From the NCBI GenBank assembly GCA_944392805.1, contig CALXXZ010000006.1, forward strand, positions 21,587 through 85,586: 64,000 nt of DNA. Reading direction: 5' to 3'. The stretch is from an uncultured Clostridia bacterium. Its GTDB lineage: Bacteria; Bacillota; Clostridia; TANB77; CAG-508. Shown here one piece after another: positions 49,426-63,387 of the stretch. A model generated the notes under the pieces. It saw only the letters and a list, made by a program, of their open reading frames with translations. It was not told where the DNA came from and did no database searches. Both the position numbers and the translations under genes were made by a program. Each line of letters starts with the position of its first letter. Position 1 is the stretch's first letter.

Positions 49426-49487
49426 TTATATCATATTTTTCAAAAAAAAGAAAGCTTAAATTTTTACATTTAAACTTTCTTTTTAAT

Positions 49488-51044
49488 TTATTTTAAATTA
49501 ATAATTAATGGGTCCATTTCATAATATATTTCTCCCCCAGTATCTTCTTGACCTTCAATCGGATTTCTAACTGTTTCTATTGGTACTATTTTTATATAAT
49601 CTGTATCAGTATTTTCTATAAGTAAATATTCTATAGTTTCCCATATGGCATTATTATATTTTTTATTAGGCAAATCATGTATATCATAATCTTCTCTTGT
49701 TCCGTCACTATATATTAGTGTTTTCTTGTTACTTGTACCAAAACAAGATAATTCTTTACCATTTGCATCATATACCTTATATTGTCTTGTTATTGGCAAA
49801 TGTTCTACATTAGGGTCTGCATATCTATTTGCAAAAGCATTAGATGATTGCTTACTTGCTGAATGATTTATCTTTACAATTGTCTGTATTGGTGAAATTA
49901 CAACCTTTTCTACTTTTTGTGTTATATTTCTAAATTCTGATTTTATTTCTGGATCTTCTATTACTTTACTGTCATTTAAAACTAAATCCTTAGATACATT
50001 TACTTCAAAATCTAATGGTAAATCTTTTACGTACTTTTCAGGTAAATACATATTGCTACTATCCTCTCTTGCAAACCACTGACAATCACTTAACCAATTA
50101 TCGCCTAAACCTTGCCATGCTGGCATATTTATCAATTTATTATTTTTTAATGTAATTTTAAAGTTTTCTTTACCTTTTAATTCATCATCTGTTAATGAAT
50201 ACATATTATAAATTTTATATTCGTAATCACTTATTTTTTCGACTTTTTGCCAATTTCTAACATAAAATGGTTCATCATCTATGTATATGCTTGCATACCA
50301 AGTAGTGTTTGGGTTAAATTTGTCATAATTATATACTCCACCTTTTTGCTCTGTGTTTAGTGCTAGACCTATTCTAAATCCGGTGCTTTTCCTTTCTTCT
50401 AATTGCTTATCATACATTTTTATTTTTTCTAAATATTCTTGATAATATTTAGAATTTTTTATTTCTTCTTCTGTTACTTCTATCTGGTCTAATATATTAT
50501 TTATTTCTTCATCAGTTTCATTTGTGAAATATCTTCCATATTTATCTGATTGAATCCTTTTTATCATTTTTTGTTTAGCTTTTTCCTTATCCTCTTGAAT
50601 TTGGTTATAAAATTCTTCTGTGTAAGCAGTTTCTCCAAGTCTTAGATTATTATAATCTTCTTGACTTAGTTTGACATTAAATTCTAAAATTGTTATTCCT
50701 TCACTACACATTGTAGAGGTTAATTCTACACTCGTATCTCCAAATGCAACAACTTGATTTTCTACTGGTTGTTTATATTCTATATATTTATCTGAAAATT
50801 TTATACCTAGCCAATCCATAGCAGGAATGCCCTCAATTTTCCCACCTGATACTGCATATACACTAAAAGTTCCTATTAATGTTGTTATAGTTGATATTAT
50901 GACTATAATAGCTTGTTTTATATAATTTTTTAACTTATGCTTTTTATTTATATATAAAGCTTTTTTTATGGTTCTTTCATAAGTATATGGCTCTTCTATT
51001 TCTTTAGATAACGCACTTTTTATCATTTTATCTAATACATCCAT
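49488..51044 (-). CDS. Putative anti-sigma factor / membrane-anchored extracytoplasmic protein, partner of sigma paralog 3
   Basis: 518 aa. N-terminal short cytoplasmic segment, transmembrane helix AIIVIISTITTLIGTFSVYAV, and a large outside domain. Its start lies 2 nt after the sigma gene stop. Confidence 0.4.
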   Translation of the reverse strand: MDVLDKMIKSALSKEIEEPYTYERTIKKALYINKKHKLKNYIKQAIIVIISTITTLIGTFSVYAVSGGKIEGIPAMDWLGIKFSDKYIEYKQPVENQVVAFGDTSVELTSTMCSEGITILEFNVKLSQEDYNNLRLGETAYTEEFYNQIQEDKEKAKQKMIKRIQSDKYGRYFTNETDEEINNILDQIEVTEEEIKNSKYYQEYLEKIKMYDKQLEERKSTGFRIGLALNTEQKGGVYNYDKFNPNTTWYASIYIDDEPFYVRNWQKVEKISDYEYKIYNMYSLTDDELKGKENFKITLKNNKLINMPAWQGLGDNWLSDCQWFAREDSSNMYLPEKYVKDLPLDFEVNVSKDLVLNDSKVIEDPEIKSEFRNITQKVEKVVISPIQTIVKINHSASKQSSNAFANRYADPNVEHLPITRQYKVYDANGKELSCFGTSNKKTLIYSDGTREDYDIHDLPNKKYNNAIWETIEYLLIENTDTDYIKIVPIETVRNPIEGQEDTGGEIYYEMDPLIINLK

Positions 51045-51045
51045 A

Positions 51046-51567
51046 TTATTGATTTCCTTTCAAATATTTATTTTTTATTTTATCTTTGCCTCGTTTTAAT
51101 CTTGTTTTTATGGTGTTTTCATTTGTTTTTAATATTTTTGATATTTCTTTTATTGAATAATCTTCTAAGTAAAATAATGTTATTGCTATTCTTTCATCAT
51201 AATTCAAGTCTCTTAAAATTAGATAAAAATCGACATTATCTAATTCTTCATAATTTTCATTTTGAGAATATATATTCTCTAGTTCAGTATCTTCAAAAGA
51301 AATATTCCTTTTTTTATTTTTATTAAAAATTTGATTGCATTTATTTATTAATATTTTTATAATCCATTTTTTATAGGATTCACTTTTGTTTAGTTTTCTT
51401 ATATTTTTAAATGCAATTATCATTGTCTCCTGAACAGCATCTTCTATGTCGTCTTCACAAGATAAACGGCATCTGGCTATTTTATATAAATCTTGTCTTA
51501 TTTCATATATTAATTCTGTAAATGCTTCTTTATCACCTTTTTGGGCTTTTATGACTAGTTCTTCCAT
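51046..51567 (-). CDS. ECF-type sigma-70 family sigma factor (paralog 3 of 3)
   Basis: 173 aa. MEELVIKAQKGDKEAFTELI...EDDIEDAVQETMIIAFKNI...WIIKILINKCN...ISKILKTNENTIKTRLKRGKDKI. GGAGGA ribosome-binding site. Confidence 0.7.
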   Translation of the reverse strand: MEELVIKAQKGDKEAFTELIYEIRQDLYKIARCRLSCEDDIEDAVQETMIIAFKNIRKLNKSESYKKWIIKILINKCNQIFNKNKKRNISFEDTELENIYSQNENYEELDNVDFYLILRDLNYDERIAITLFYLEDYSIKEISKILKTNENTIKTRLKRGKDKIKNKYLKGNQ

Positions 51568-51960: not shown

Positions 51961-52500
51961 TTATTTTACAATATACTCCCATCCTGGTTGCCATGATTTT
52001 GTTTTTCTCCAATCATGTTCTATAACATATTCCCAACTTTTGTTTTCAGTTATGACCTGAAATGCTAATTGAGGAGCTTTGTGTGCAACTATTGCAATAT
52101 GTTTTCCATCATAGTTTTGTAATAAAGATTCACAGAAACTTCTAATTCTATTTTCAACATCGATTAGACTTTCTCCATTTGGAAATTTTTCTTGTATATG
52201 TTCTTCATATTTTACTAATGATGACTCTAGTCCATTTAAATCTCCATAATTACATTCTCGTAATCTACTATCTTTTATTATTTCTTTATTATTTTCAAAT
52301 ATATTTTTAGTTGAGTCAATCGCTCTTTTTAAATCTGAACAAAATACTATATCAAATTCATTTATATTTATTTGCTCTTTTAATGCAATACTTTGTTCAA
52401 TTCCTTTTTGTGATAATTCTCCTGGTAACCATCCTGTTGATTTGTGTTCTAAATTATCTATTGTTGTTCCATGCACAAAATATGTTATTTTTACTGCCAT
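51961..52500 (-). CDS. Histidine-phosphatase superfamily protein (PGM-like); the catalytic-loop Arg is replaced (VHG instead of RHG)
   Basis: 179 aa. KITYFVHGTT at the position of the RHG motif. ...LKRAIDST... Last gene of the nine-gene operon. Confidence 0.6.
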   Translation of the reverse strand: MAVKITYFVHGTTIDNLEHKSTGWLPGELSQKGIEQSIALKEQININEFDIVFCSDLKRAIDSTKNIFENNKEIIKDSRLRECNYGDLNGLESSLVKYEEHIQEKFPNGESLIDVENRIRSFCESLLQNYDGKHIAIVAHKAPQLAFQVITENKSWEYVIEHDWRKTKSWQPGWEYIVK

Positions 52501-52517
52501 TTTTAATTCCCTACTTT

Positions 52518-53411
52518 CTAAAATTTATCTACTGGATATACTGTAACATATTCTTCAGTTGCATTTTCTTGATAATATATCCAATCAGAACAATCCTTGC
52601 ATGCTCCTTTATATATATGGTTTCGCAAATCAGAAATTAATTGATCTAATTTTCCATTTTCAACTAGTTTTTTTACAGAATAGTCATAATCTCTTAAATT
52701 TCCTAAAGAATTTCTGGCTAGAAAATCACAACAACAAGTTACAACTTCACAATTACTAAGAATTATTATATTACGTTTTAATCCTTTACACTCTCCTCTT
52801 TCATATGTACTAAGGTCTCTATTTTTAGGATTTATATCCATCTCAATGCTATGTGCTCTATTAGTAAAATTATGAAAAGCAACATTAATACCAAGATTGT
52901 GAAAATATTTGATAAACTCATTTCTATCTAAATTAGCCCCTGTATCTATCATAACAGCTTGAAGTTCAGTTTTAGCATGTGTTTTATCAACATACTTTTT
53001 CAAATTATTCAAATTATTTAAAACATTAGATAAATTGTCTACTCCTCTTATTTGTTTATATACTGTTGGATTTAAAGTTCCAACTGATACAACAATATAA
53101 TTCATACCTGAATCTACAATTTTTTCAATATTTTCTTCATTGAGTAATGCACCATTGGTTGAGATTCTAGTCTTAAGTCCTTTACTATGCATGTATTTTA
53201 CTCTATCGAAAAAGTAAGGATCTACTAGTGGCTCTCCATTAAGATCAAGCCAAATTGGCTTTTTGTGAAATAAATCAATATTTCTATCAACTATTTTATA
53301 AAACTCCTCCATATCCATATGACAATTTCTTGTTCTTTTAACACATATTGGACAAGAATAATTACATTTACTTGTAGTTTCTATATATTTTATAACTATT
53401 TCTTCACTCAT
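52518..53411 (-). CDS. Radical SAM enzyme with C-terminal Cys-rich auxiliary-cluster (twitch/SPASM-like) domain
   Basis: 297 aa. CNYSCPIC (CX3CX2C), the LDLNGEPLV glycine-rich SAM motif, and C-terminal CEVVTCCCDF...GACKDCSDW. Confidence 0.8.
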   Translation of the reverse strand: MSEEIVIKYIETTSKCNYSCPICVKRTRNCHMDMEEFYKIVDRNIDLFHKKPIWLDLNGEPLVDPYFFDRVKYMHSKGLKTRISTNGALLNEENIEKIVDSGMNYIVVSVGTLNPTVYKQIRGVDNLSNVLNNLNNLKKYVDKTHAKTELQAVMIDTGANLDRNEFIKYFHNLGINVAFHNFTNRAHSIEMDINPKNRDLSTYERGECKGLKRNIIILSNCEVVTCCCDFLARNSLGNLRDYDYSVKKLVENGKLDQLISDLRNHIYKGACKDCSDWIYYQENATEEYVTVYPVDKF

Positions 53412-53414
53412 TCT

Positions 53415-54107
53415 TTACTCCTTTATTAAGATATTTATATAATTTATTATTTCATTTATTGCATCTTTTCTACCTTCTTTTAATTTATTACGATCTGTAT
53501 CTGATAATTCCCAAAAATTAATTTTTTTTGGAATATCTGATATTAACAATAATGATACAAATCTATTATTGTTTTCTATTGCTGTTTTTGCACAATAAGT
53601 AGTTTCCATATCCACAACGTCGCAATTTTCTTTTCTTGCAAATTCACAATATTTCTTTTCAATTTTACCAAGTAAACATGGAGAATAACCACATTTTACT
53701 CTCTCTCTTTTTCCTGTCGTATTAATCTTTGTAATTTCACCATACTCATCCTCAGCTAATTCAACTTCTACCAAACTTCCAATTGTATATCTATTGTTTA
53801 AACTTCCAGCTAAACCAAAAAATAAAATATCAGTATTAGTGAATAATTCTATTATATCTTTTGCTGAAATTCCTTGTGGAGATAAGATTAACATTCCTCT
53901 TTTATTTTCTTTATGTAATTTAAAAATACAATTTTCAAAAAAACCATTATCATGTTCTTCTTCAATATCTAAAATTTCACTTAATTTATAAAATGTTGAT
54001 GGCAATGGTGTAATAACTATTATAGCTATATTAATAGGATTATGTCCCAACATAATTCTTCTAATTTCATTTATTTTATCTTTCATTTTAATATTTCTCA
54101 ACTCCAT
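53415..54107 (-). CDS. PNP/UDP-phosphorylase-family nucleosidase (MTA/SAH nucleosidase- or futalosine hydrolase-like)
   Basis: 230 aa. MLILSPQGISAKD...LFFGLAGSL and VVDMETTYCAKTA...VSLLLISDIP align with Pfs motifs (SAGG...AVEMEA...VVRAISD). Confidence 0.55.
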   Translation of the reverse strand: MELRNIKMKDKINEIRRIMLGHNPINIAIIVITPLPSTFYKLSEILDIEEEHDNGFFENCIFKLHKENKRGMLILSPQGISAKDIIELFTNTDILFFGLAGSLNNRYTIGSLVEVELAEDEYGEITKINTTGKRERVKCGYSPCLLGKIEKKYCEFARKENCDVVDMETTYCAKTAIENNNRFVSLLLISDIPKKINFWELSDTDRNKLKEGRKDAINEIINYINILIKE

Positions 54108-55285
54108 AATAATTTATTGATTATGTCAGGTTCTATTAGTCCATTTGGAACGCTGATTTCCTGATTTTTAAATTTCTCAACCACATTATTTATAGCCATC
54201 TTTACAAGTGGAGGTGTAATAATACATTCTCTTTTATCAGTTAAACAATTAAATCTTTTCATTCCATCAAAAGGACATCCTCCACCACAACATGCTAATG
54301 CTATGCATTTTGAACAATCAGATTTAGTGTCTTTTGCCAATTCTATTGGTGAATTTTTATCAAGTAGTTCATTGGTAACACGTAATTTTAAATCATCTTT
54401 TTCATTATCAATTTTTGAACATCTTATAATTGATTTATCAGGTAAAATTGTTGTCTGCGTGGTATGTAATCCACATGAGAATTTTTTAACTTTTCCTTCA
54501 CACAATGGGTTTAATCTCCATTTTAATTGAGGGATTTCTGCTTTTATTCTTTTTCGGTTTTTGTAAAGGTCTAACAATACATCTCTAAATTCTTCTGCTA
54601 ACCCATTATTTTTATAACCTGGTGTCCAATGTGGAAGATTATATCCAATTCTTATTGGTGAATATTTTTCATCTAATTTAAAAATCATATCTGCTGCTCT
54701 ATTAACTGTTTCTGGAGTGGCAACCATAAAAATACCAAATTTAACATTATATTCTTTCAATAAATTTATTCCTTTTATAATATCTGGATACATAAATTCT
54801 TTATTTGTATATACCCTATTAACATTATCTTCAAATTCTGGGCCATCCAGCGAAATATATACTTTAACATTCGATTCTGAAAACTTTTTAGCCATTTCTT
54901 TTGTTATTAATGTTCCATTTGTTGAAAAACTAATTTTTCCATTAAAATTATCTATTATGTAAGATATTTCATCAAAGTGAAGTAAAGGTTCTCCTCCAAT
55001 AATAAAAATCTTCTTTATATTCTTAAACCACTCTTGACTGACAAGATATTTCCAAAATTCTTTAACATCCAGAATTTCTGCTTTTTCTACATTATTTCCA
55101 TATACTAAACAATATTTACATCTTCCGTTACATAAATGAGAGATTTCTAATCTTAATTTTACTAATGAATCACTATAATAATCAGCTATTATTTCAGGGT
55201 TAGAATCATTAAAAGAAAATCTATTATACTCTGGAAAAAAATAAAGTTTATTCTTTCCGTCTAAATCATATTCCACTTTTTTCAT
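54098..55285 (-). CDS. Radical SAM / SPASM-domain enzyme (anSME / peptide- or cyclitol-modifying maturase class)
   Basis: 395 aa. CNGRCKYC radical-SAM cluster motif, IIGGEPLL, and a full SPASM motif CSKCIALACCGGGCP plus upstream Cys pairs. Confidence 0.85.
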   Translation of the reverse strand: MKKVEYDLDGKNKLYFFPEYNRFSFNDSNPEIIADYYSDSLVKLRLEISHLCNGRCKYCLVYGNNVEKAEILDVKEFWKYLVSQEWFKNIKKIFIIGGEPLLHFDEISYIIDNFNGKISFSTNGTLITKEMAKKFSESNVKVYISLDGPEFEDNVNRVYTNKEFMYPDIIKGINLLKEYNVKFGIFMVATPETVNRAADMIFKLDEKYSPIRIGYNLPHWTPGYKNNGLAEEFRDVLLDLYKNRKRIKAEIPQLKWRLNPLCEGKVKKFSCGLHTTQTTILPDKSIIRCSKIDNEKDDLKLRVTNELLDKNSPIELAKDTKSDCSKCIALACCGGGCPFDGMKRFNCLTDKRECIITPPLVKMAINNVVEKFKNQEISVPNGLIEPDIINKLLWS

Positions 55286-56033
55286 TACAATTCCTTCCTT
55301 TCTTTTTATTTACATCTAAGACAACTCCGCTATCCATAAGAATTGTTTGGCCTGTAATCTTATTATCTTCTTCTATTAGATATTTAACTAATTTATATAC
55401 ATCATATGGATTAATAATGCCAAATGGCATATTTTTATCTGTGGTTTCCATCATTTTTTTTATAACATTTTCATCTTTTTTGTATCTTTTTAAAAAATTA
55501 GTTTTTACAGATGCTAAAGCTATAGTATTAACTCTAACCTTTGAATCCATAAGTTCAAGTGCTAGAATTTTAGAAAACATTTCTATAGCAGCTTTAGTAA
55601 CTGCATATGGTGCACTTTTTATTTGAGGTAAAACAACTTGTTCAGAACTCAAATTAATAATATTACCGTTTGATGATTTTTTTAATAATGGTATTGAATA
55701 CTTTGTTATCAAAAATGTTCCTGTTAAATTTACATCAATAACGTTCTGCCATTCTGTTTTTGAAAGATTTTCTATTAAATTTCTTTCACTATAACAAAAT
55801 ATTCCCGCTGAATTTACTAAACAATCAATATGACCTGCTTTTTCATTTATTTTGTTAAATATCTCTATTATTTTTTCTTCATTTCTAACATCACATTGAA
55901 AAAAATCTATTTCATTATTTTTTGTTTTTTCCTCATCTATTCCAAAAACATGTATATTATCTTTTATAAAATTTTTTGCTATGCACTCTCCTATTCCAGA
56001 AGATACACCAGTTATTATCGCATACTTTTCCAT
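55266..56033 (-). CDS. Short-chain dehydrogenase/reductase (SDR) family oxidoreductase
   Basis: 255 aa. TGVSSGIG cofactor motif, NSAG, catalytic YAVTKAA (YxxxK). Confidence 0.85.
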   Translation of the reverse strand: MEKYAIITGVSSGIGECIAKNFIKDNIHVFGIDEEKTKNNEIDFFQCDVRNEEKIIEIFNKINEKAGHIDCLVNSAGIFCYSERNLIENLSKTEWQNVIDVNLTGTFLITKYSIPLLKKSSNGNIINLSSEQVVLPQIKSAPYAVTKAAIEMFSKILALELMDSKVRVNTIALASVKTNFLKRYKKDENVIKKMMETTDKNMPFGIINPYDVYKLVKYLIEEDNKITGQTILMDSGVVLDVNKKKGRNCNEKSGI

Positions 56034-56036
56034 AAT

Positions 56037-57038
56037 CTACCTTCTACTTTCTCTTAAAAAATCATTTAATGGGTCTTCTGATAAGAAGCTACCATTATAT
56101 ATATTAGCTAATGCAATACATCCACAATAGCCAAATTTATCTTTTCTATTTTTTTTACAATTATCAAAATCTTTAAATTTTTTTATACATTCACTAATAT
56201 TATTTTCAGGCCAATATGATGAAAATTCATTTTTCGTATCTATTTTAGCTATCCAAGAACATGGTGATACTTTTCCATTGACATCAATATGTATTAAATT
56301 CTTTCCACCAGGACAATCTAAGCTATTTTTATCTAATATATCAGTTCTTCTAAATCTTATTTCAAAGTCATCTTTTGCATATTTACTTATTAATTTTTCC
56401 ATTTTATCAAATATTTCTCCATGTCTATTAGCAGACACTTTAATTGTATCATCTGATTTTGCTCTTCCTTCAGGTATTAAGAATGCAAAATTAATTTTTG
56501 AAACTCCACAAGATTTTGCTAAGATAATCATATCTTCCAATTCTTCTACATTTTCTTTCCATATCATTGCACTTATTTTAGTTTTTACATTATTTTCTTT
56601 TAATAACTTAAAAACTTTTATACAATTATCATATGCTCCTTGAACACCTCTAAATTTATCATGAGTTTCTCCAATTCCATCAAGACTAATAGAAACCAAT
56701 TGAACTCCTTTTTTTATTGCATCTATATGTTTTGGAATTTCTAATCCATTAGTTGCAAGTGTCACTTTCATCCCCAAAGAATTAGCATACAAAATCACTT
56801 CATCTATATATGGATATAATAAAGGCTCACCTCCAGAAATATAAATTTTCTCTGTTTTATTTTCGTGAAGTTCTTCTATTAATTTTAATATATCCTCTCT
56901 TGAGAAACCTTTGTTAATATCTTTATCCTTAGATTTATTCATACAATGTTTACATTTCATATTGCAACAATTCGTTATTTCTATAAATGTTAAAAAATCC
57001 TCACTTTTCCTTTGTTTAAATACACATGGTGATACCAT
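56037..57038 (-). CDS. Radical SAM / SPASM-like enzyme
   Basis: CNMKCKHC cluster motif, ISGGEPLL, and C-terminal Cys-rich CPGG...GKVSPC...C.......C...GYCGC. The start was set at ATG 57038 (MVSPCVF) after GAAAGGAG. The track's longer ORF to 57089 overlaps the HAD gene and has no ribosome-binding site. Confidence 0.75.
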   Translation of the reverse strand: MVSPCVFKQRKSEDFLTFIEITNCCNMKCKHCMNKSKDKDINKGFSREDILKLIEELHENKTEKIYISGGEPLLYPYIDEVILYANSLGMKVTLATNGLEIPKHIDAIKKGVQLVSISLDGIGETHDKFRGVQGAYDNCIKVFKLLKENNVKTKISAMIWKENVEELEDMIILAKSCGVSKINFAFLIPEGRAKSDDTIKVSANRHGEIFDKMEKLISKYAKDDFEIRFRRTDILDKNSLDCPGGKNLIHIDVNGKVSPCSWIAKIDTKNEFSSYWPENNISECIKKFKDFDNCKKNRKDKFGYCGCIALANIYNGSFLSEDPLNDFLRESRR

Positions 57039-57039
57039 T

Positions 57040-57777
57040 TTAAATCTCCTTTCTTCTTTTATCTTTAAACAAGGTAAATAATTCTTCAAAGTCTTTCACA
57101 TTATAATCTGCAATTTCGTTTATTTTTTCTCTATCTTTATCAGAATATTTGTCGTAAATTGCTATAACATTAAGTTTTGCTCTTTTGGCTGCAACAACTC
57201 CCGATAGCGAATCTTCAATTACTAGACATTTCGACAAATCTTTAATATTAAATTTATTAATTATTTTATTGTAGACTTCTGGATTTGGTTTTTTTTGAAT
57301 AACATCATCTTTAGTAACAATTAAATCAAAATATTTTTGTAAATCACATTTTTTTCTTATGTTTTCATTTTCATAAAAATAAATATTTAATGATTGCCTA
57401 CTAGAAACTGTAGCTAATGCTAATTTTATTTTTTGTTCTTTTATCAATTTTATTATTATATCAGCACCTGGTTTATATTTTACATTCTTCAAAAATTTTC
57501 TTGATATCTTTCTACGAATTTCAAGTATTTCCTCTGCTAACAAATCTAAATTATATTTTTCTTTTAAATATTGACAATAATTGACATATATATCTCCATT
57601 TGTCTTAGTTTTTAAAATGTAATCTCTTTCTTGTATAATTTCATCTGCATTTTTCTTTTCTTTAAAAAAGCGAACCAATTCAATATCTATTTCATTATTT
57701 ACTCCATTGGAATCTATCAATGTTCCATCGAGATCAAAAATAATTAAATCCAAATCTTTTATTTTCTCTAAAAACAT
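57040..57777 (-). CDS. HAD-superfamily hydrolase (subfamily IA, phosphatase/beta-phosphoglucomutase-like)
   Basis: 245 aa. Motif I IIFDLDGTLIDS. Motif III/IV is K...ALATVSS...VIEDSLSGVVAAKRA. Confidence 0.8.
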   Translation of the reverse strand: MFLEKIKDLDLIIFDLDGTLIDSNGVNNEIDIELVRFFKEKKNADEIIQERDYILKTKTNGDIYVNYCQYLKEKYNLDLLAEEILEIRRKISRKFLKNVKYKPGADIIIKLIKEQKIKLALATVSSRQSLNIYFYENENIRKKCDLQKYFDLIVTKDDVIQKKPNPEVYNKIINKFNIKDLSKCLVIEDSLSGVVAAKRAKLNVIAIYDKYSDKDREKINEIADYNVKDFEELFTLFKDKRRKEI

Positions 57778-57808
57778 AATTTCATCCTCCTATAATACTT
57801 TGATTTCA

Positions 57809-59164
57809 TTATGCCTCCTTTAATCTTTTTTTAGGAGTATACATAGATTTGAATACATATGTAATTAACAATAATATACTATTTACTGAAAACATAACTA
57901 TTGAAATGGCTGAAAAGTTTTCTGGTAGACAACCTGTCCCATATGCAAGACTAATCATTAGCATAACAGCTGTATTATATGGTATTAAAGTCGATGTAGC
58001 ACATGATAGTCCATCAAATATATTTGCTTTTTCTATTTGTGTCTTATTTTTAAAGCATTTGTCTATGAACTTACTAATTAAAGACATCGCAGCAGTATTA
58101 TTAGATATTAACAATACTGATGAAATTATAGTTAATGCAGCTAGTCCGTTAGTTCTAGCTGGACTTTTACTACTTTTTACTTTTTTATCAATATATTCCT
58201 CCAACATATCTACAGGTATAAATTCTGTTAGAATAAATAAGAAAATCCAAAATACAATAACTCCAAAAACACCTTCTATGCCAGAAATTATAGGACTATT
58301 TGCACTAAACATATCTCCAAAAGTTACAAATCCGAATGCCATGGCTAGAATAATTGCAAACACATCACATATTAATAAAACTGAAATTAAGTCATTCTTT
58401 TTTAGTAATAAGAACATCATTAATATAAAAACAACTAACATAAATAGTGGCATCAACGAATCACTTGCATAAACTTCAATATTATCTGTTGGATTTGTGA
58501 TTAACAAATGACCTAAAATTATAAAGATAACTGTTGAAAATACTGCACAACCCAAAGATATTTTTACTCTTTCCTTTAATGTATCTAGCAAATTAACTTT
58601 CATTGTATTTACGGAAATTATTGTAGTATCTGATATAGGTGATAAATTATCACCAAAACCACCACCACACATAATGGCTCCTAATGCTAGCGCAGGATTA
58701 CAATTTAATGATACTGCAATTGGTAGAAAAATGGGTACCACTATAGAATATGTACCAGTATTTGTCCCAATAAAAGTTGATATTAGACAACATATAATGA
58801 ACATTATAGCAGGTATAAATTCTGGTCCAACACCAGTATTTATAAAAATCGTTAAAAGCGCATTTGAAACACCTGTTACTTTTAATATACTGGATAATAT
58901 TCCTGCTAAAATAAAGATAAGAACATATGTCAATAAAGTATTACTTTTTAAATTCTCAATACATTTATTTCCAAACTCCTTTTTATTTTTTGATAATAAA
59001 TAAGTTAAAAATATAGCAAAAAATCCAATTATCCAAAAAGTTTTTAGAGAAGCTCTTTTCAATATAACTAAAGTTATTATACTAATAATCAAAAAAACAA
59101 TTGGGATAAAAATAGCTTTTCTTCCTAAATAAAATTCATTATTCGTTTCGTTTTTATTTTCCAT
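57809..59164 (-). CDS. NhaC-family membrane transporter (Na+/H+ antiporter NhaC-like; substrate unknown)
   Basis: 451 aa, about 11-12 transmembrane helices. ...GGGFGDNLSPISDTTI... is typical of NhaC family proteins. Confidence 0.7.
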   Translation of the reverse strand: MENKNETNNEFYLGRKAIFIPIVFLIISIITLVILKRASLKTFWIIGFFAIFLTYLLSKNKKEFGNKCIENLKSNTLLTYVLIFILAGILSSILKVTGVSNALLTIFINTGVGPEFIPAIMFIICCLISTFIGTNTGTYSIVVPIFLPIAVSLNCNPALALGAIMCGGGFGDNLSPISDTTIISVNTMKVNLLDTLKERVKISLGCAVFSTVIFIILGHLLITNPTDNIEVYASDSLMPLFMLVVFILMMFLLLKKNDLISVLLICDVFAIILAMAFGFVTFGDMFSANSPIISGIEGVFGVIVFWIFLFILTEFIPVDMLEEYIDKKVKSSKSPARTNGLAALTIISSVLLISNNTAAMSLISKFIDKCFKNKTQIEKANIFDGLSCATSTLIPYNTAVMLMISLAYGTGCLPENFSAISIVMFSVNSILLLITYVFKSMYTPKKRLKEA

Positions 59165-59204
59165 TTTTTCATTTCCCCTCTTAGTTCATTTAATAAATTA
59201 ATTT

Positions 59205-60230
59205 TTAAATTATTTTTTGTAATATATTTTTTTGTTTTTCGTTTAATTCTTCAGTTGGTATTTTTCTTAAGTCTTCTATTTTTGTAATAAAATATTCACA
59301 TAGTATACCTTTTAGTATTTTTTTATCTTCTGATGAGATATCTTTAAATTTTGAAACAATTATGTCATACTCCGTTTTATCTTTTAACTGTTTCTGTTGT
59401 ACATTCCAATTTTTATATTCATATTCTATATATTCTTCGGCAGACTTAAACAAGCCTTCTTCAAATACTTTATTTTCTATTTCCTTAGTTATTGAAAGCA
59501 TTTCTTTTCTTCTTCTTAATACATCTTCTTCTGAAACTTCATTCACTACAAAACAATTTTCAATTCTTTTCTCTATATTATTAGGACAGAAGTCAAGAGT
59601 ACCCAATAGAGATATTTTCCATTTTGCAGCAGGTGGAAATTTTTTGTCATATACAAAAAGAAGATCAGTTACATAGTTTAATCCTTGATTCAATAAATCC
59701 ATTGCATTAAAAATCAACCCTCTTTTTACTGCATTTAAAGGATTAACTTCTACCATCCAGTAAATTCTTGATAATAGATGAGATAGTAATAGTTTTCTAT
59801 ATTCTTCTGTAAATACTGTTTTTTCTTTAATCAATTTTTCTATTTTTCCGTTTCTGTCAAAAATAATCTCACAAGCATATTTATAAAACTCTTTTTTATA
59901 ATCATGCCAATTTGAATTTTTCTCTTCATTATAAATTTTTTGATGAAAATTTACTTCCATTGTCTTATCTATACCATTTGGATCTGTTATAACAATATAA
60001 AATGAAAAAGGTGGCAACCAATCAGGTAAGTGTTCTCTGTCAACATTGAGAAAAATTCCAATATCAATATCTGAGTATTCATCAATAAAATCTTTGTATT
60101 CAGTGTTTGCAAGTCCACTTAAATAGACTATTCCTTCAACTTCTGGATATTCTTTTAATTTCTGTATCAATTTATCCATTCTTTTTCTGACTATTGGCTT
60201 TATGTTTTTAGTCTTTATTCCTTTTATCAT
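59205..60230 (-). CDS. Nucleotidyltransferase-fold protein (Lnu/ANT-like minimal NTase + helical domain)
   Basis: 341 aa. GIVYLSGLANTEYKDFIDEYSDIDIGIFL matches the GS-x9-13-D-x-D/E NTase motif, as in lincosamide/aminoglycoside nucleotidyltransferases. First gene of the operon. Confidence 0.5.
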   Translation of the reverse strand: MIKGIKTKNIKPIVRKRMDKLIQKLKEYPEVEGIVYLSGLANTEYKDFIDEYSDIDIGIFLNVDREHLPDWLPPFSFYIVITDPNGIDKTMEVNFHQKIYNEEKNSNWHDYKKEFYKYACEIIFDRNGKIEKLIKEKTVFTEEYRKLLLSHLLSRIYWMVEVNPLNAVKRGLIFNAMDLLNQGLNYVTDLLFVYDKKFPPAAKWKISLLGTLDFCPNNIEKRIENCFVVNEVSEEDVLRRRKEMLSITKEIENKVFEEGLFKSAEEYIEYEYKNWNVQQKQLKDKTEYDIIVSKFKDISSEDKKILKGILCEYFITKIEDLRKIPTEELNEKQKNILQKII

Positions 60231-60434
60231 AATATTCCTCCTATATTCATTAATATTTATTTTTTATAAAACAAAAAGCCAAAGAAAAAAATCCTTTGAC
60301 TTTTATTTTTAAAATTTAGACACAAAAATAGAATAGTTAATTTTATTACATTTATTCTTTTTAAATGATTTTGTATTATTAATCATCTTAATTATCATTT
60401 TATTACTCCTAACATTATATAAAAAATTGCAAAA

Positions 60435-60472
60435 TCCGAGATTATTATACCATTTCTTTTATCTTTTGTCAA
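60435..60472 (-). promoter_or_regulatory. Candidate sigma-A promoter for the nine-gene radical-SAM operon
   Basis: On the minus strand TTGACA-17 nt-TATAAT (plus-strand tgtcaa at ~60467-60472 and attata at ~60438-60443). It gives a ~190-nt AT-rich leader before the NTase gene. Confidence 0.4.
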
Positions 60473-60534: not shown

Positions 60535-60609
60535 TGGAGGCGTTGGACGGATTCGAACCGACGAATCAGAGTTTTGCAGACTCATGCCTTACCACTTGGC
60601 TACAACGCC
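60535..60609 (-). tRNA. tRNA-Cys (anticodon GCA)
   Basis: Reverse complement reads ggcgttgtagccaagtggtaaggcatgagtctgcaaaactctgattcgtcggttcgaatccgtccaacgcctcca. Anticodon loop ctGCAaa, T-arm GGTTCGAAT, 3' CCA. It lies directly downstream of cysS. Confidence 0.85.
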
Positions 60610-60678: not shown

Positions 60679-62154
60679 TTATTGGTTAAAATTATAAAGT
60701 GCTTTTAAGTCCCAGACAGTGCCTTCCCTTGTATCCTTTACAAGAATACCTTTTTCTTCAAGCTCATTTCTGATTGCATCAGCTTTTTCAAAGTCTTTAC
60801 TTTTTTTAGCCTCTGCCCTCTTAGAAATCTGGACTTCAACATCTTCTACATCGATGTTAAGCTTTTTAAGGTACTTCTCCTTCATTTCTGAAAGGAATTT
60901 CTCTGGTTCCTGCTCGAAAAATCCTAAAATTTTGTAAACACTTTTTAGATCTTTCAAAACCTTTGCCAAAGTGTTAGCTACTATCTGTTTGTTCGCCTTC
61001 TTAGCCGATTTCATCACGTTATTCACATACTTGAAAATTGTATGTAAATTGGCTATTGCCAATGCTGAGTTAAAATCATCATCCATCACCTCAATAAATC
61101 TGGAAATGATGGTATTAGGAATTTCATCTTTCAAAATTTCTGATGTAGCGTCTCCTCCATTACTAGAAATAAATTCTTCCATTGCCTTAATTGTACTATA
61201 GAAATAATACATATGCCCTTCTGAAAGTTGGAAATCACTATCATGAAGATCAATGTCTGATGTATAATGCTTAGAAAGTATAGTATGTTTAATCACTTCA
61301 TAGTTGTACTTTTCTAAAGCATCCCTTATCGTTAGAGAATTGCCTAACGATTTCCCCATCTTTTGTCCATTAATCTTTATGAGACCACAATGAGTCCAAT
61401 AATTTGCAAACGTCTTTCCTGTTAAAGATTCACTTTGTGCAATCTCATTTTCATGATGTGGGAATACTAAATCTTTTCCACCACCATGAATATCAATTGT
61501 TTCTCCTAGGGTATCCAAAGCCATTGCTGAGCACTCAATGTGCCAACCAGGTCTTCCATTTCCCCAAGGTGATTTCCAAGAAATCTCTCCAGGCTTTGCG
61601 GCTTTCCAAAGTGCAAAATCAACTGGATCTTCTTTTTCTTCATCGAGTTCGATGCGAACGCCGTTTCTTAGTTCTTCGACTTTTCTATGAGATAACTTCC
61701 CATAGTCTTTGTCAGTCTTTACTGAAAAATAAACATCTCCATTCTTTGTAACATATGCATGGCCTTTTTCGATAAGTCCTTCCACAAATTTTATAATTTG
61801 TGGAATGTACTCAGATGCCTTGGTCATGATATCCGCATTCTTAACATGTAGAGCTGCCATATCTTTTTCAGTTTCGAGAATCTGCTCTCTAGAAAATTCC
61901 AAAGCATTTTTTCCCAATTCATTAGCTCTATTGATGATCTTGTCATCAACATCAGTGTAGTTACGTACGTATGTCACGTGGTATCCTCTATATCTGAGAT
62001 ATTCCGTAATCATATCATAGTCAATTGCTTGCCTAGCATGACCAATATGACTCAAGTCATATACAGTAATACCGCAAGCATACATTTTTACTTCGCCTTG
62101 TTTTAAAGGTACAAATTCTTCTTTCTTCCCATTCATAGAGTTTGTGATTTTCAT
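60679..62154 (-). CDS. cysS: Cysteinyl-tRNA synthetase
   Basis: 491 aa. HIGH motif (LSHIGHARQ), KMSKS (KMGKSLGN), and Zn-binding Cys/His. A perfect 10-bp inverted repeat (atcgattaga...tctaatcgat) lies between cysS and tRNA-Cys. Confidence 0.9.
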
Positions 62155-62421: not shown

Positions 62422-63387
62422 CTATTCTTCATGGCTTAATAATTCAACTTTATTGGAAATAAATTCTTTATTATTATCGATATCTCTAAACAAATCTGTA
62501 GATAAATATTTCTTATTATCATCTGCAAATACTGTAACTACATTATCTTCTATTTCATCCGCAAGTAATATGCTACCAATCAAATTTGCTCCCGATGAAA
62601 TTCCAACTCCAATTCCTAATTGTTTAGATAATTTTCTAGACATATTAATTGCATCCTCATCATTTATTTGTATAATTTTATCAATTTTATTTTTATCCAC
62701 TAATTCTGGAATAAAATCATCTCCAATCCCCTCTATTTTGTGTTGTCCTATCACTTTTCCCCCAGATAGAATTGGCATTTTGGCTGGTTCTATAGCAGTT
62801 ATACATATATCATTATATTTCTCTTTTAACTTATCTCCTATTCCCATCAAAGTTCCTCCTGTACCTATGCCAGATACAAATCCTCCTATTTTTTCTGGGA
62901 TTTGATTTAATATTTCTTCTCCCGTTGTTTCATAATGAGCTAGATAATTATCTTTATTTGCAAATTGATTAGCACAAAAACCATTTAACTCTTTAGCTAA
63001 TTTTTTTGCTTCATTTACACACCTTATAAATCCACCTTCTTCTTTTGAAAATAAAAATACTTTAGCGCCATACCCTTCCATTAATTTAATCCTTTCTTTG
63101 CTTACCCAATCAGGCATGAAAATATATACTGGATGTTTATAAAAAGTTCCTAATGCTGACAGTGCAATACCTGTATTTCCACTTGTTGCCTCAACTATTG
63201 GCATTCCATCTTTCAGTATTCCTCTTTTTTTAGCATTATTAATTATATAAAAAGCTACTCTATCTTTAATACTTCCTGTTAAGTTAAAATATTCTAGTTT
63301 AACAAATATTTTTTTTATCTTTCCATTATATTTATAAATTATTTTTGTCATTGGTGTATTCCCTATAATTTCATTTTTTTTATACAT
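62422..63387 (-). CDS. cysK: Cysteine synthase (O-acetylserine sulfhydrylase family, PLP-dependent)
   Basis: 321 aa. PLP-lysine motif LTGSIKDRVA, glycine-rich loop GIGTGGTLMG, and ...EATSGNTGIALS. Confidence 0.8.
   Translation of the reverse strand: MYKKNEIIGNTPMTKIIYKYNGKIKKIFVKLEYFNLTGSIKDRVAFYIINNAKKRGILKDGMPIVEATSGNTGIALSALGTFYKHPVYIFMPDWVSKERIKLMEGYGAKVFLFSKEEGGFIRCVNEAKKLAKELNGFCANQFANKDNYLAHYETTGEEILNQIPEKIGGFVSGIGTGGTLMGIGDKLKEKYNDICITAIEPAKMPILSGGKVIGQHKIEGIGDDFIPELVDKNKIDKIIQINDEDAINMSRKLSKQLGIGVGISSGANLIGSILLADEIEDNVVTVFADDNKKYLSTDLFRDIDNNKEFISNKVELLSHEE

What the first reader, a model, noticed from the sequence alone, without database searches (positions are those of the whole stretch)
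51961..60472. Compact nine-gene operon with three radical-SAM/SPASM enzymes but no precursor peptide, plus nucleosidase, SDR, HAD, histidine phosphatase, Lnu-like nucleotidyltransferase and NhaC transporter: an uncharacterised small-molecule pathway
All nine genes are on the minus strand with overlaps or gaps under 45 bp. A good TTGACA-17-TATAAT promoter and a ~190-nt leader precede them. The operon holds three separate CX3CX2C radical SAM proteins, two with full or partial SPASM/twitch auxiliary-cluster motifs. No ORF of 30-70 aa with a ribosome-binding site lies in or beside the operon, which argues against a RiPP. The partners are Lnu/ANT-like NTase, HAD phosphatase, histidine phosphatase (with RHG changed to VHG), SDR, an NhaC-family importer, and a PNP/MTAN-family nucleosidase that could recycle 5'-deoxyadenosine from the three radical SAM enzymes or cleave a nucleoside substrate. 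These resemble nucleotide-sugar, aminocyclitol or nucleoside modification and catabolic routes (twitch rSAM dehydrogenases such as BtrN act on aminocyclitols). I do not recognise this gene combination as a described pathway.
Basis: partly seen in the sequence, partly recalled or inferred. Interest (0 to 1): 0.75.

Follow-up and report, generated by a model that had tools for sequence, protein, structure and literature searches.

The report
Radical-SAM gene cluster tied to tRNA synthetases
This stretch of an uncultured gut Clostridium encodes an undescribed small-molecule pathway (three radical SAM enzymes, a dehydrogenase and a nucleosidase-like enzyme) that in relatives repeatedly travels with a tRNA synthetase gene and its matching tRNA gene, which suggests an antibiotic that contains or imitates an activated amino acid.

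Summary
The nine co-oriented genes, the consensus promoter and the domain calls are all real. No gene reaches any curated family cut-off, and no paper describing the cluster was found.

Comparative genomics changes the picture in three ways.

1. The operon is composite. The conserved unit is rSAM1-SDR-rSAM2(SPASM)-MTAN-like-rSAM3 (g4-g8), usually with a phosphatase. It occurs in Clostridia, Lachnospiraceae, Paenibacillus and a Bacteroidetes island. g1 (ANT/Lnu-fold nucleotidyltransferase) and g2 (NhaC) form a separate module. Elsewhere that module follows cysS with no radical SAM genes.

2. No small ORF is conserved across lineages, and rSAM2 lacks an RRE. A RiPP is therefore unlikely.

3. The core repeatedly carries a class I aminoacyl-tRNA synthetase: IleRS2 in seven loci, LeuRS in two architectures, CysRS in a Bacteroidetes low-GC island. 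It often carries the cognate tRNA too. In the window, CysRS and tRNA-Cys sit directly upstream. A 70%-identical relative has two cysS genes flanking the cluster, the native one broken.

Best reading: the Cys-type member of an undescribed biosynthetic family that makes an aminoacyl-bearing or aminoacyl-mimicking metabolite, by analogy with albomycin and SB-203207. The product is unknown.

The parts
60679..62154 (-). cysS, cysteine-tRNA ligase of 'type X' ([19 protein letters not shown]); proposed partner of the cluster (supply and/or immunity)
   Evidence: TIGR00435 524.5 bits, above the 340 cut-off. 67% identical to the intact cysS that lies directly downstream of the cluster in L050, and only about 40% identical to the Firmicutes-type cysS of L048 and L050-upstream.
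60535..60609 (-). tRNA-Cys (GCA), encodes CCA, lies between cysS and the cluster promoter
   Evidence: ARAGORN and Rfam. Also present in L003. The Ile-type clusters carry tRNA-Ile(GAU) in the equivalent role.
60444..60472 (-). sigma-70-type promoter, TTGACA-17-TATAAT with TG extension
   Evidence: 12/12 match. Conserved in L003 and L004.
60309..60398 (-). 29-aa leader ORF MIIKMINNTKSFKKNKCNKINYSIFVSKF with an AGGAG site 7 nt upstream
   Evidence: Same length, RBS and frame in L003 but only 16 of 29 residues identical by my count. Absent from L004. L050 and L048 have only 13-19 nt between cysS and the g1 homologue.
60274..60304 (-). terminator-like hairpin plus T-run between the leader ORF and g1 (possible attenuator)
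   Evidence: 13 pairs. Also the dominant stem in the fold. Kept in L003 with changes that preserve pairing.
59205..60230 (-). g1, ANT/Lnu-fold nucleotidyltransferase with a helical C-terminal domain (weak DUF4037)
   Evidence: Model pLDDT 92.2. Foldseek best matches are ANT(4'), LinB and 3c18. Invariant G39, D54, D56, E92. Homologues follow cysS without the core in L048/L049 and follow the core in L041.
57809..59164 (-). g2, NhaC-family membrane transporter
   Evidence: PF03553, 73.9 bits. 65% identical to the NhaC in the cysS-g1-PglZ-NhaC module of L048.
57040..57777 (-). g3, HAD-IA phosphatase (sugar-phosphate phosphatase-like)
   Evidence: HAD_2, 86 bits; best NCBIfam hit HxpB, 82 bits against a 191 cut-off. 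First gene of the cluster in group B loci.
56037..57038 (-). g4, rSAM1: CX3CX2C plus a twitch-like C-terminus
   Evidence: Radical_SAM 100 bits; best hit AhbD, 142 bits against 500. Invariant C5, C25/29/32, C242, C260, C307.
55266..56033 (-). g5, classical SDR oxidoreductase
   Evidence: adh_short, 155 bits; no equivalog cut-off reached. Part of the conserved core.
54098..55285 (-). g6, rSAM2: full SPASM, no RRE
   Evidence: Invariant C52/56/59 plus C271, C289, C324, C327, C333, C337, C354. Best hit PapB, 104 bits against 340. Matches CteB residues 82-420 only.
53415..54107 (-). g7, divergent MTAN/PNP-fold enzyme
   Evidence: Model pLDDT 92.6. Foldseek TM 0.6-0.73 to MTAN, futalosine hydrolase and PNP. 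VDMET and ISD align with the VEME and SD motifs of MTAN. The N-terminal strand reads ITPLPST.
52518..53411 (-). g8, rSAM3: CX3CX2C plus four conserved C-terminal Cys
   Evidence: Radical_SAM 58 bits; SPASM 20.9 bits, just under cut-off. Invariant C208, C226, C271, C274. No PDB sequence relative at E<1e-5.
51961..52500 (-). g9, histidine phosphatase with VHG in place of RHG; lineage-specific accessory
   Evidence: His_Phos_1, 91.6 bits. Absent from L003 and L004. Group B has a different His phosphatase (RHG) after PfkB.

Best explanation
The locus is the cysteine-type member of an undescribed, horizontally mobile family of biosynthetic gene clusters.

**Core.** The conserved core is rSAM1 (twitch-like), an SDR, rSAM2 (full SPASM, no RRE), an MTAN-fold enzyme and rSAM3. 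It builds a small scaffold, most likely derived from a sugar phosphate or a nucleoside.

**Tailoring and handling.** Lineage-specific genes adjust the scaffold's phosphorylation state, nucleotidylate it and move it across the membrane. These are HAD and histidine phosphatases, a PfkB kinase, SurE, phosphodiesterases, nucleotidyltransferases and transporters.

**Link to translation.** In many lineages the cluster also carries a full-length class I aminoacyl-tRNA synthetase, and often the cognate tRNA. In the window these are CysRS and tRNA-Cys directly upstream. I infer that this pair does one or both of two things:
- it delivers the amino acid, as aminoacyl-tRNA or aminoacyl-adenylate, onto the scaffold;
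- it protects the producer from a product that imitates the aminoacyl-adenylate.

Cluster-borne synthetase copies are reported in these roles for AbmK in albomycin and SbzA in SB-203207 biosynthesis.

**Shown:** gene content, folds, synteny, the aaRS and tRNA association, island borders, and the duplicated and decayed cysS in a relative.

**Inferred:** the nature of the scaffold, the aminoacylation step, the inhibitory activity, and that the window's own cysS belongs functionally to the cluster.
For: **A conserved core.**
- g4-g8 occur in the same order in Clostridia MAGs, a Bacillota MAG, Lachnospiraceae, Paenibacillus and a locus next to a relaxase. They occur in shuffled order in Bacteroidetes and other loci.
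- The rSAM2 family is sharply bounded: 114 proteins at 41-100% identity, then a drop to 31% or less.

**Not a RiPP.**
- No small ORF is shared between divergent lineages.
- rSAM2 has only about 45 residues before its CX3CX2C and aligns to CteB from residue 82 onward, so it has no RRE.

**aaRS link.**
- IleRS type 2 occurs in L015, L016, L039, L042 (overlapping rSAM1 by 8 nt), L043, L045 and L060.
- These IleRS are 70-85% identical across hosts whose loci range from 34 to 63% GC (their IleRS genes from 33 to 61%). The accompanying rSAM2 are 44-68% identical, and the closest pairs are the same in both comparisons.
- LeuRS occurs in L044/L064 and in L068, where it lies inside a low-GC island together with the core.
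- CysRS lies inside the low-GC island of Bacteroidetes L034.

**Cognate tRNAs.** tRNA-Ile(GAU) lies inside the L043/L060/L061 and L045 clusters. tRNA-Cys(GCA) lies beside the window and L003 clusters.

**L050** (g1 71% and rSAM2 72% identical to the window):
- cysS of the Firmicutes type lies upstream. It carries HIKN and an in-frame TAA inside HHENEIA*S.
- An intact cysS 67% identical to the window's lies directly after rSAM3.

**Sugar or nucleoside flavour.**
- g7 is MTAN/PNP-fold and keeps the ribose-binding Met-Glu and the catalytic Ser-Asp.
- g1 is ANT(4')/LinB-fold.
- Accessory genes include a PfkB kinase, HAD and His phosphatases, SurE, phosphodiesterase, a DegT aminotransferase and GT2.

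**Secondary-metabolism context elsewhere:** ABC exporters, AMP-binding plus PP-binding proteins, PKS parts and methyltransferases. Mobility marks include relaxase, integrase, IS elements and a site downstream of glmS.

**Precedent for cluster-borne aaRS with biosynthetic and immunity roles:** PMC9032320 (AbmK); PMC12945691 (SbzA, AcmD/AcmF).
Against: - No product, activity or transcript is known.
- The largest subgroup, group B (L005-L012, L040, L052-L058), and also L017, L046 and L047 show no aaRS within about 8 kb. The synthetase is therefore not obligatory.
- The window's cysS sits with a cysteine-synthase-like gene and an SDH_alpha-family gene. It may simply be the housekeeping gene. Whether the genome has a second cysS could not be tested.
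- g1 and g2 are linked to cysS even where no radical SAM core exists. Part of the window's cysS adjacency is therefore inherited from that module.
- Cluster-borne tRNA genes were not mentioned in the precedents I read.
- The L050 stop codon could be an assembly or sequencing error.
- The MTAN-fold enzyme is missing from a 64-67% identical subgroup (L056-L058).
Confidence: 0.55

Rival explanations
1. It is a RiPP pathway. The 29-aa leader ORF, or another unrecognised peptide, is the precursor, and the SPASM enzyme rSAM2 cross-links it as PapB and CteB do.
For: - rSAM2's best family matches are peptide maturases: PapB 104 bits and CteB.
- Promoter, small ORF with RBS, leaky terminator, then enzymes is a classic RiPP layout.
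- The ORF keeps its length, frame and RBS in L003.
- NTP_transf_5, Lactamase_B and ABC2 genes in distant loci are common in RiPP clusters.
Against: - The ORF is absent from L004. L050 leaves only 19 nt between the upstream cysS remnant and g1. No small ORF is shared across the divergent lineages.
- It is only about 55% conserved where its neighbours are 80-92% conserved.
- Its single Cys changes position between the window and L003.
- rSAM2 has no RRE, and no PqqD, protease or leader-peptidase gene accompanies the core.
- All family scores are far below cut-off.
Confidence: 0.07
2. It is a catabolic or salvage route for an imported nucleoside, sugar phosphate or cyclitol. Radical SAM dehydratases or dehydrogenases do the chemistry, and the nucleosidase cleaves the substrate or clears 5'-deoxyadenosine. 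The aaRS neighbours are coincidental.
For: - Transporter, kinase, phosphatases, SDR and nucleosidase resemble a utilisation locus.
- A LysR regulator lies upstream in group B.
- The aaRS-free group B is the most numerous form among gut loci.
Against: - Three auxiliary-cluster radical SAM enzymes with no isomerase, aldolase or glycolytic entry enzyme.
- Patchy, island-like distribution with relaxase, integrase and IS elements nearby.
- aaRS genes inside the islands and overlapping the core genes.
- Cognate tRNA genes.
- Exporters and NRPS/PKS parts in related loci.
Confidence: 0.13
3. The system acts on tRNA or aminoacyl-tRNA itself. It remodels the esterified amino acid or a tRNA base, and the dedicated synthetase/tRNA pair carries the result into translation. 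This would be a pyrrolysine-like logic.
For: - An aaRS, its cognate tRNA, radical SAM enzymes and a dehydrogenase occur together, as in pylTSBCD (own knowledge).
- The tRNA genes have their own promoters inside the clusters.
- In the cluster IleRS the HIGH position reads PHHGT.
Against: - The tRNAs have ordinary sense anticodons (GAU, GCA) and ordinary sequences.
- The synthetases pass the normal equivalog cut-offs.
- Many clusters lack both the aaRS and the tRNA.
- Exporters and phosphatases fit a free small molecule better.
Confidence: 0.1
4. It is an anti-phage defence island. Viperin-like radical SAM enzymes make chain-terminating nucleotides, helped by a nucleotidyltransferase, a nucleosidase and phosphatases.
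For: - Weak pVip matches for all three radical SAM proteins: 89, 56 and 59 bits.
- Mobile, island-like context.
- An argonaute-like fragment lies next to L034.
Against: - Viperin scores are below the NCBIfam cut-off (79.6 against 180) and lower than the matches to AhbD or PapB.
- No other PADLOC match.
- aaRS, tRNA, SDR and SPASM content is not a known defence architecture.
Confidence: 0.04

Closest known systems
Albomycin (abm) cluster: thionucleoside SerRS inhibitor with a cluster-borne SerRS (AbmK) and a radical SAM enzyme (PMC9032320)
   Same: - Radical SAM chemistry on a nucleoside or sugar scaffold.
- A nucleoside-kinase-like gene.
- A full-length aaRS copy inside the cluster that, per the review, both supplies activated amino acid and confers immunity.
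   Different: - No sequence relationship was shown.
- Here there are three auxiliary-cluster radical SAM enzymes plus an SDR and an MTAN-fold enzyme.
- The aaRS is class I (Ile, Leu or Cys).
- Cognate tRNA genes are present.
- The hosts are anaerobic Firmicutes and Bacteroidetes.
- There is no siderophore part.
SB-203207/altemicidin (sbz) cluster with SbzA, and ascamycin AcmD/AcmF (PMC12945691)
   Same: An extra IleRS (or AlaRS-like) copy in the cluster is described as a self-resistance protein that uses aminoacyl-tRNA to put the amino acid on a scaffold, giving an aaRS inhibitor. This is the logic proposed here for swapping Ile, Leu and Cys cassettes onto one core.
   Different: - Those scaffolds are an azaindane sulfonamide and a sulfamoyl adenosine, from Streptomyces.
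- They have no equivalent radical SAM/SDR/MTAN core.
- Transfer activity of the synthetases here is untested.
Sacti-/ranthipeptide maturases PapB and CteB (SPASM radical SAM)
   Same: rSAM2 has the CX3CX2C motif plus a seven-Cys SPASM domain, and these are its best family and PDB sequence matches.
   Different: - Score 104 against a cut-off of 340.
- No RRE.
- No conserved precursor peptide.
MTA/SAH nucleosidase and futalosine hydrolase (MqnB); HpnG of hopanoid side-chain synthesis
   Same: - g7 shares the fold and the Met-Glu and Ser-Asp active-site motifs.
- In those pathways a nucleosidase works after a radical SAM enzyme that attaches 5'-deoxyadenosyl to the substrate (own knowledge). That route is also possible here.
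   Different: - Sequence similarity is marginal (E about 0.003; NCBIfam 25 against 161).
- The N-terminal catalytic-Glu strand is replaced by ITPLPST.
- No MqnE- or HpnH-like assignment was obtained for any of the radical SAM proteins.
ANT(4') kanamycin and LinB/Lnu lincosamide nucleotidyltransferases
   Same: g1 shares the two-domain fold (TM to target 0.61-0.66) and the G-S...DxD...E catalytic pattern.
   Different: - 12-18% identity.
- 341 aa with an extra helical tail.
- Genomic partner is cysS, a phosphodiesterase and an NhaC transporter rather than a resistance cassette.
- Substrate unknown.

Membership tests
RiPP system with a SPASM maturase (sactipeptide/ranthipeptide, PapB/CteB type) | A precursor peptide gene that is conserved next to the maturase | tested here: not met
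   All-against-all comparison of small ORFs in 17 and then 23 loci found none shared between divergent lineages. The window's 29-aa ORF matches only L001/L003 among the cluster loci, apart from one weak match elsewhere in L034.
RiPP system with a SPASM maturase (sactipeptide/ranthipeptide, PapB/CteB type) | N-terminal RRE (PqqD-like) domain or a separate RRE protein | tested here: not met
   CX3CX2C begins at residue 52. The match to CteB covers chain residues 82-420 only. No PqqD gene lies in the core clusters.
RiPP system with a SPASM maturase (sactipeptide/ranthipeptide, PapB/CteB type) | SPASM domain with seven or eight Cys for two auxiliary clusters | tested here: met
   Seven invariant C-terminal Cys in 22 sequences.
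RiPP system with a SPASM maturase (sactipeptide/ranthipeptide, PapB/CteB type) | Curated family score | tested here: not met
   NF047865 PapB: 104.2 bits against a cut-off of 340.
MTA/SAH nucleosidase (MtnN) / futalosine hydrolase | PNP/UDP-1 fold | tested here: met
   pLDDT 92.6. Foldseek TM 0.6-0.73, probability 1.00.
MTA/SAH nucleosidase (MtnN) / futalosine hydrolase | Ribose-binding Met-Glu and catalytic Ser-Asp motifs | tested here: met
   VDMET and ISD are invariant and align to VEME and SD of S. aureus MTAN.
MTA/SAH nucleosidase (MtnN) / futalosine hydrolase | N-terminal GAMEEE strand with the water-activating Glu (own knowledge of E. coli MTAN) | tested here: not met
   The first strand reads I-T-P-L-(P/K)-S-T with no acidic residue. 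The position is judged from the model's first strand, not from a residue-level superposition.
MTA/SAH nucleosidase (MtnN) / futalosine hydrolase | Curated family score | tested here: not met
   NF005522: 25.3 bits against 161.
Antibiotic nucleotidyltransferases (ANT(4'), Lnu/LinB) | Pol-beta-type NTase fold with G-[SG], DxD and a third carboxylate | tested here: met
   Foldseek E 1.8e-7 to 3.9e-6 for 3c18, LinB and ANT(4'). G39, D54, D56 and E92 are invariant.
Antibiotic nucleotidyltransferases (ANT(4'), Lnu/LinB) | Nucleotidylation of a hydroxyl of an aminoglycoside or lincosamide | not testable with these tools
   Needs an enzyme assay.
Biosynthetic clusters for aaRS inhibitors with a cluster-borne target copy (albomycin, SB-203207, mupirocin type) | Full-length aaRS gene inside or abutting the cluster | tested here: met
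   - IleRS2 in seven loci, LeuRS in two architectures, CysRS in L034, L050 and the window group.
- Inside low-GC islands in L034 and L068.
- In the window it is adjacent but a separate transcription unit.
Biosynthetic clusters for aaRS inhibitors with a cluster-borne target copy (albomycin, SB-203207, mupirocin type) | A second, housekeeping copy of the same aaRS elsewhere in the genome | tested here: inconclusive
   L050 has two cysS of different types at the cluster, and the native-type one is broken. For the window and the IleRS/LeuRS loci only about 20-64 kb was available.
Biosynthetic clusters for aaRS inhibitors with a cluster-borne target copy (albomycin, SB-203207, mupirocin type) | The product inhibits the cognate aaRS and the cluster copy is insensitive | not testable with these tools
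   Needs the compound and enzyme assays.
Prokaryotic viperins (pVip) | Curated family score and nucleotide-kinase or stand-alone defence context | tested here: not met
   NF038283: 79.6, 49.5 and 45.3 bits against 180. PADLOC pVip matches are generic.
Pyrrolysine-type cassette (tRNA, aaRS, radical SAM, ligase, dehydrogenase) | Dedicated tRNA that reads a stop codon, and a dedicated non-canonical aaRS | tested here: not met
   The anticodons are GCA and GAU. The synthetases pass the ordinary cysS, ileS and leuS equivalog cut-offs.

The most novel reading that the evidence does not exclude
This is a modular family of 'swap-the-synthetase' antibiotics in anaerobes. One core, built by radical SAM enzymes, supplies the warhead. 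An exchangeable cassette made of a class I aaRS and its cognate tRNA both loads the amino acid (Ile, Leu or Cys) and makes the producer immune, so that cassette decides which synthetase of competitors is poisoned.

In the Cys-type lineage the imported CysRS has displaced the native one, which is a pseudogene in L050 and gone from the window.

In gut relatives without the core, the ANT-like transferase, phosphodiesterase and NhaC genes that follow cysS would then be a counter-resistance operon against the same compound.
Probability: 0.3. Interest if true: 0.9.

Novelty: new variant of a known kind. Interest (0 to 1): 0.78.

Why it matters
If the reading holds, this is an untapped family of translation-targeting natural products encoded by uncultured gut and soil anaerobes, which current cluster-mining rules miss. 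Two features would make it unusual:
- a five-enzyme radical SAM core not described in any paper or curated family searched here;
- an evolutionary design in which target specificity is changed by exchanging a synthetase/tRNA cassette.

It gives concrete, testable targets for resistance-guided discovery: a type 2 IleRS most similar to MupA/MupB, a LeuRS, and a CysRS (CysRS is not among the natural aaRS-inhibitor targets named in the reviews read here). It also gives a natural case of replacement of an essential housekeeping synthetase.

Even if the aaRS link proves indirect, the core is a conserved, cross-phylum pathway of unknown chemistry with three auxiliary-cluster radical SAM enzymes that apparently act on a non-peptide substrate.

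Tried and rejected
- **Riboswitch or T-box in the leader.** No Rfam match at gathering or at E<=1. The leader as a whole does not fold better than shuffles (z = -0.49).
- **Riboswitches in seven related loci.** Only an unrelated glmS ribozyme was found.
- **tRNA-targeted island integration.** The 3' end of tRNA-Cys has no repeat elsewhere in the window.
- **Precursor peptide in the 1.9-kb gene-free gap of the Paenibacillus locus.** The ORF list shows only short ORFs and one HTH-like fragment.
- **Defence system.** PADLOC gave only generic viperin matches.
- **4'-thiothymidine cluster (PMC12691670).** It has a different three-gene architecture.
- **tRNA-deacylase-guided mining paper (PMC13149037).** My term search of its text found no mention of IleRS, nucleosidase, Clostridia or Paenibacillus.
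- **Five literature searches** found no description of this cluster.
- **Sequence search of g7, g1 and rSAM3 against the PDB** gave nothing useful, so folds were used instead.
- **Foldseek against afdb50** was not available.
- **Leader ORF as a cysteine-sensing attenuator.** Rejected because it has a single Cys codon, and that codon moves between the window and L003.

Full report
**1. Observation**

The nine minus-strand ORFs exist as described. From their coordinates, gaps and overlaps lie between -20 and +40 nt.

Pfam and NCBIfam confirm the domains:
- three Radical_SAM proteins with CX3CX2C (g4, g6, g8);
- a classical SDR (g5);
- a HAD-IA phosphatase (g3);
- a branch-1 histidine phosphatase that reads FVHGTT (g9);
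- an NhaC-family transporter (g2);
- a weak PNP_UDP_1 match (g7).

g1 has only sub-threshold DUF4037. None of the nine reaches a curated equivalog cut-off. The nearest are AhbD (142 against 500) for g4, PapB (104 against 340) for g6, and the tungsten-cofactor maturase (96 against 380) for g8.

The promoter at 60472-60444 is a perfect 12/12 match with a TG extension.

It is followed by the only minus-strand terminator-like hairpin in the region (60304-60274). No Rfam family matches the leader. Identical DNA is known only from metagenomic contigs.

**2. The conserved unit is smaller than the operon**

A protein search with g6 found a sharply bounded family: 114 proteins at 41-100% identity, then 31% or less. 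Loci were fetched from GTDB genomes, from metagenomes and by exact protein look-up. I mapped them with tblastn and clustering.

rSAM1-SDR-rSAM2-MTAN-like-rSAM3 is kept, mostly in that order, in:
- uncultured Clostridia;
- a Bacillota MAG;
- Lachnospiraceae;
- Paenibacillus sp. FSL H7-0350;
- a locus beside a relaxase.

It is kept in rearranged order in Ruthenibacterium, in a Bacteroidetes MAG and in others.

The accessory genes vary:
- two clades of HAD phosphatase and two of histidine phosphatase;
- a PfkB kinase in the large group B;
- SurE plus a phosphodiesterase;
- NTP_transf_5 and Lactamase_B;
- ABC exporters;
- an unknown protein family of about 185-210 aa;
- methyltransferases, a DegT aminotransferase, GT2;
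- AMP-binding/PP-binding and PKS parts.

g9 is confined to the window's own lineage.

g1 and g2 form a separate module. In L048/L049 a 55%-identical g1 homologue follows cysS after 13 nt and is followed by a PglZ/phosphodiesterase gene and an NhaC gene, with no radical SAM genes. A 27%-identical g1 homologue follows the core in L041, together with a transporter, a phosphodiesterase and SurE.

The window operon is therefore [g1-g2] + [g3, core g4-g8, g9]. The two blocks are joined head to tail behind one strong promoter.

**3. Not a RiPP, as far as sequence can show**

The 29-aa ORF keeps its length, frame, RBS and downstream hairpin in L003. Only 16 of 29 residues are identical, while the neighbouring proteins are 80-92% identical. 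It is absent from L004. L050 and L048 have no leader at all.

Two all-against-all screens of small ORFs across 17 and 23 loci found nothing shared between divergent lineages.

rSAM2 has a full seven-Cys SPASM domain but only about 45 residues before the radical SAM motif. It aligns to CteB from residue 82 onward, so it lacks an RRE.

rSAM1 keeps C5, C242, C260 and C307. rSAM3 keeps C208, C226, C271 and C274. Each pattern fits one auxiliary cluster.

**4. Folds of the two least informative proteins**

*g7.* The model has pLDDT 92.6. It matches purine nucleoside phosphorylases, MTA/SAH nucleosidases, futalosine hydrolase and AMP nucleosidase at TM 0.6-0.73. A profile alignment places its invariant VDMET and ISD on the VEME and SD motifs of MTAN. 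The first strand reads ITPLPST, not the acidic GAMEEE of MTAN (the latter from my own knowledge). It is most likely a purine N-ribosyl hydrolase or phosphorylase with an altered substrate pocket.

*g1.* The model has pLDDT 92.2. Its best matches are the 3c18 NTase-like protein, kanamycin nucleotidyltransferase ANT(4') and lincosamide nucleotidyltransferase LinB. G39, D54, D56 and E92 are invariant.

**5. The unexpected result: synthetases and tRNAs**

Class I aminoacyl-tRNA synthetase genes recur in or against the cluster.

*IleRS.* A type 2 IleRS (tRNA-synt_1, Anticodon_1, DUF5915; about 1040 aa) occurs in L015, L016, L039, L042, L043, L045 and L060.
- In L042 it overlaps the start of rSAM1 by 8 nt.
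- These enzymes pass the ileS cut-off (869 against 621). Their next-best matches are the mupirocin-resistant MupA and MupB.
- They are 70-85% identical to each other across loci of 34-63% GC. The accompanying rSAM2 are 44-68% identical, and the closest pairs are the same in both comparisons.
- Their signature motifs read PHHGT and KLSKS.

*LeuRS.* It occurs in L044/L064 and, at only 40% identity, in L068. There it lies inside a low-GC island with the core, a B12-radical SAM enzyme and a PLP decarboxylase.

*CysRS.* A full CysRS, together with a TrpRS-like protein, a methyltransferase and an ATP-grasp-like protein, lies inside the 10-kb low-GC island that carries the core in Bacteroidetes L034.

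*Cognate tRNAs.* tRNA-Ile(GAU), with its own promoter, sits between rSAM2 and IleRS in L043/L060, in decayed form in L061, and also inside L045. tRNA-Cys(GCA) sits between CysRS and the cluster in the window and in L003.

**6. The window's own CysRS**

There are two CysRS types.
- Type Y (CGPTVY...HIGN) precedes g1 in L048.
- Type X ([14 protein letters not shown]) is the window's enzyme.

The two are about 40% identical.

L050 has the window's architecture at about 70% identity. It carries both types:
- type Y lies upstream of g1, with HIKN in place of HIGN and an in-frame TAA in HHENEIA*S;
- an intact type X, 67% identical to the window's, lies right after rSAM3.

Type X CysRS therefore abuts the cluster on different sides in two lineages, while the native-type gene decays or is gone. 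This fits replacement of the native enzyme by one that came with the cluster.

Caveats:
- In the window, cysS is its own transcription unit. It lies downstream of a cysteine-synthase-like gene and an SDH_alpha-family gene.
- I could not test for a second copy.
- The stop codon in L050 could be an error.

**7. Mechanism proposed**

*Shown:* a mobile, conserved five-gene core with sugar- or nucleoside-type accessory enzymes, and a repeated association with full-length Ile-, Leu- or Cys-tRNA synthetases and their cognate tRNAs that follows the cluster's relationships.

*Inferred:*
- The core makes a sugar- or nucleoside-derived scaffold.
- The synthetase/tRNA pair supplies the activated amino acid for attachment, protects the producer, or both.
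- The product would then be an aminoacyl-bearing mimic of the aminoacyl-adenylate.

This follows published cases. AbmK (SerRS) both feeds albomycin synthesis and confers immunity (PMC9032320). The extra IleRS SbzA is a self-resistance protein that transfers Ile from Ile-tRNA onto altemicidin. AcmD/AcmF play the corresponding part for ascamycin (PMC12945691).

g1, g2 and the phosphatases would handle nucleotidylation, dephosphorylation and transport.

g7 may clear 5'-deoxyadenosine, remove a base from an adenosyl intermediate as MqnB and HpnG do (own knowledge), or run in reverse to install a base.

**8. Weak points**

- The largest subgroup (group B) and several other loci have no synthetase within about 8 kb.
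- A 64-67% identical subgroup lacks g7.
- Only Ile, Leu and Cys probes were used.
- No chemistry is known.

**9. Comparison and novelty**

I found no curated family and no paper describing this cluster. Clusters with a target-copy synthetase are a known kind. This core, the class I Ile/Leu/Cys series on one scaffold pathway, and the embedded cognate tRNAs are not described in anything I searched. I rate it a new variant of a known kind, of high interest. Confidence is moderate for the family-level reading and lower for the specific role of the window's cysS.

Noticed in passing
L048 and L049, 8540-13819: In relatives without any radical SAM core, cysS (Firmicutes type) is followed after 13 nt by a 405-aa g1 homologue, a PglZ/phosphodiesterase gene and an NhaC transporter. 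This is a conserved cysS-linked module of unknown role, possibly a resistance or detoxification operon.
   Followed up: partly
L050, 8561-9982: The upstream cysS has an in-frame TAA at the conserved Gln of HHENEIAQS and reads HIKN instead of HIGN. It looks like a decaying essential gene beside an intact second cysS at 18013-19485.
   Followed up: yes
L056, L057, L058: A subgroup with rSAM2 64-67% identical to the window's has rSAM2 directly followed by rSAM3 and PfkB, with no MTAN-like gene detected. g7 is therefore dispensable or replaced there.
   Followed up: no
L061, 11201-11276: The cluster-borne tRNA-Ile is heavily mutated compared with the identical position in L060, which suggests a decaying copy.
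   Followed up: no
L039, 4051-8214: In Paenibacillus the cluster lies downstream of glmS and its ribozyme, after a 1.9-kb stretch with no called gene that holds only short ORFs and one HTH-like fragment. The position resembles a Tn7-type attachment site.
   Followed up: no
L042, 1-4683: A separate RiPP-like cluster lies divergently next to the Ile-type cluster: a radical SAM protein, a PqqD/peptidase S24 protein, an ScmC-like protein and two 53-aa ORFs. PKS, ACP and thioesterase genes lie on the other side.
   Followed up: no
L040/L006, 13890-15509: Downstream of PfkB in one group B species lie a CntK_N-GNAT fusion (405 aa) and a stand-alone HGTP_anticodon domain protein (130 aa). This could be a tRNA-binding aminoacyl-transfer pair, or unrelated.
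   Followed up: no
L034, 7643-8116: A 157-aa ORF with a weak match to the C-terminus of prokaryotic argonaute lies at the edge of the low-GC island.
   Followed up: no
window 48676-51567: Directly downstream of the cluster lie an ECF-type sigma factor (51046-51567), a 518-aa protein overlapping it by 1 nt (possible anti-sigma factor), and a CotJA-like spore-coat gene. The host is therefore a spore former. The downstream flank differs in L003 and L004, while the cysS side is conserved.
   Followed up: partly
window 62422-64000: Upstream of cysS lie a cysteine-synthase-like PALP gene and, on the identical contig L001, a 429-aa SDH_alpha-family protein. Its size and family resemble cysteine desulfidases (own knowledge). 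This gives a cysteine-themed neighbourhood.
   Followed up: no
L015, L016, L039, L042, L043, L045 (cluster IleRS): All cluster-linked IleRS read PHHGT at the HIGH position (Thr where, from memory, a His is usual) and KLSKS at KMSKS. Whether this is normal for type 2 IleRS or marks altered chemistry was not checked against reference enzymes.
   Followed up: partly
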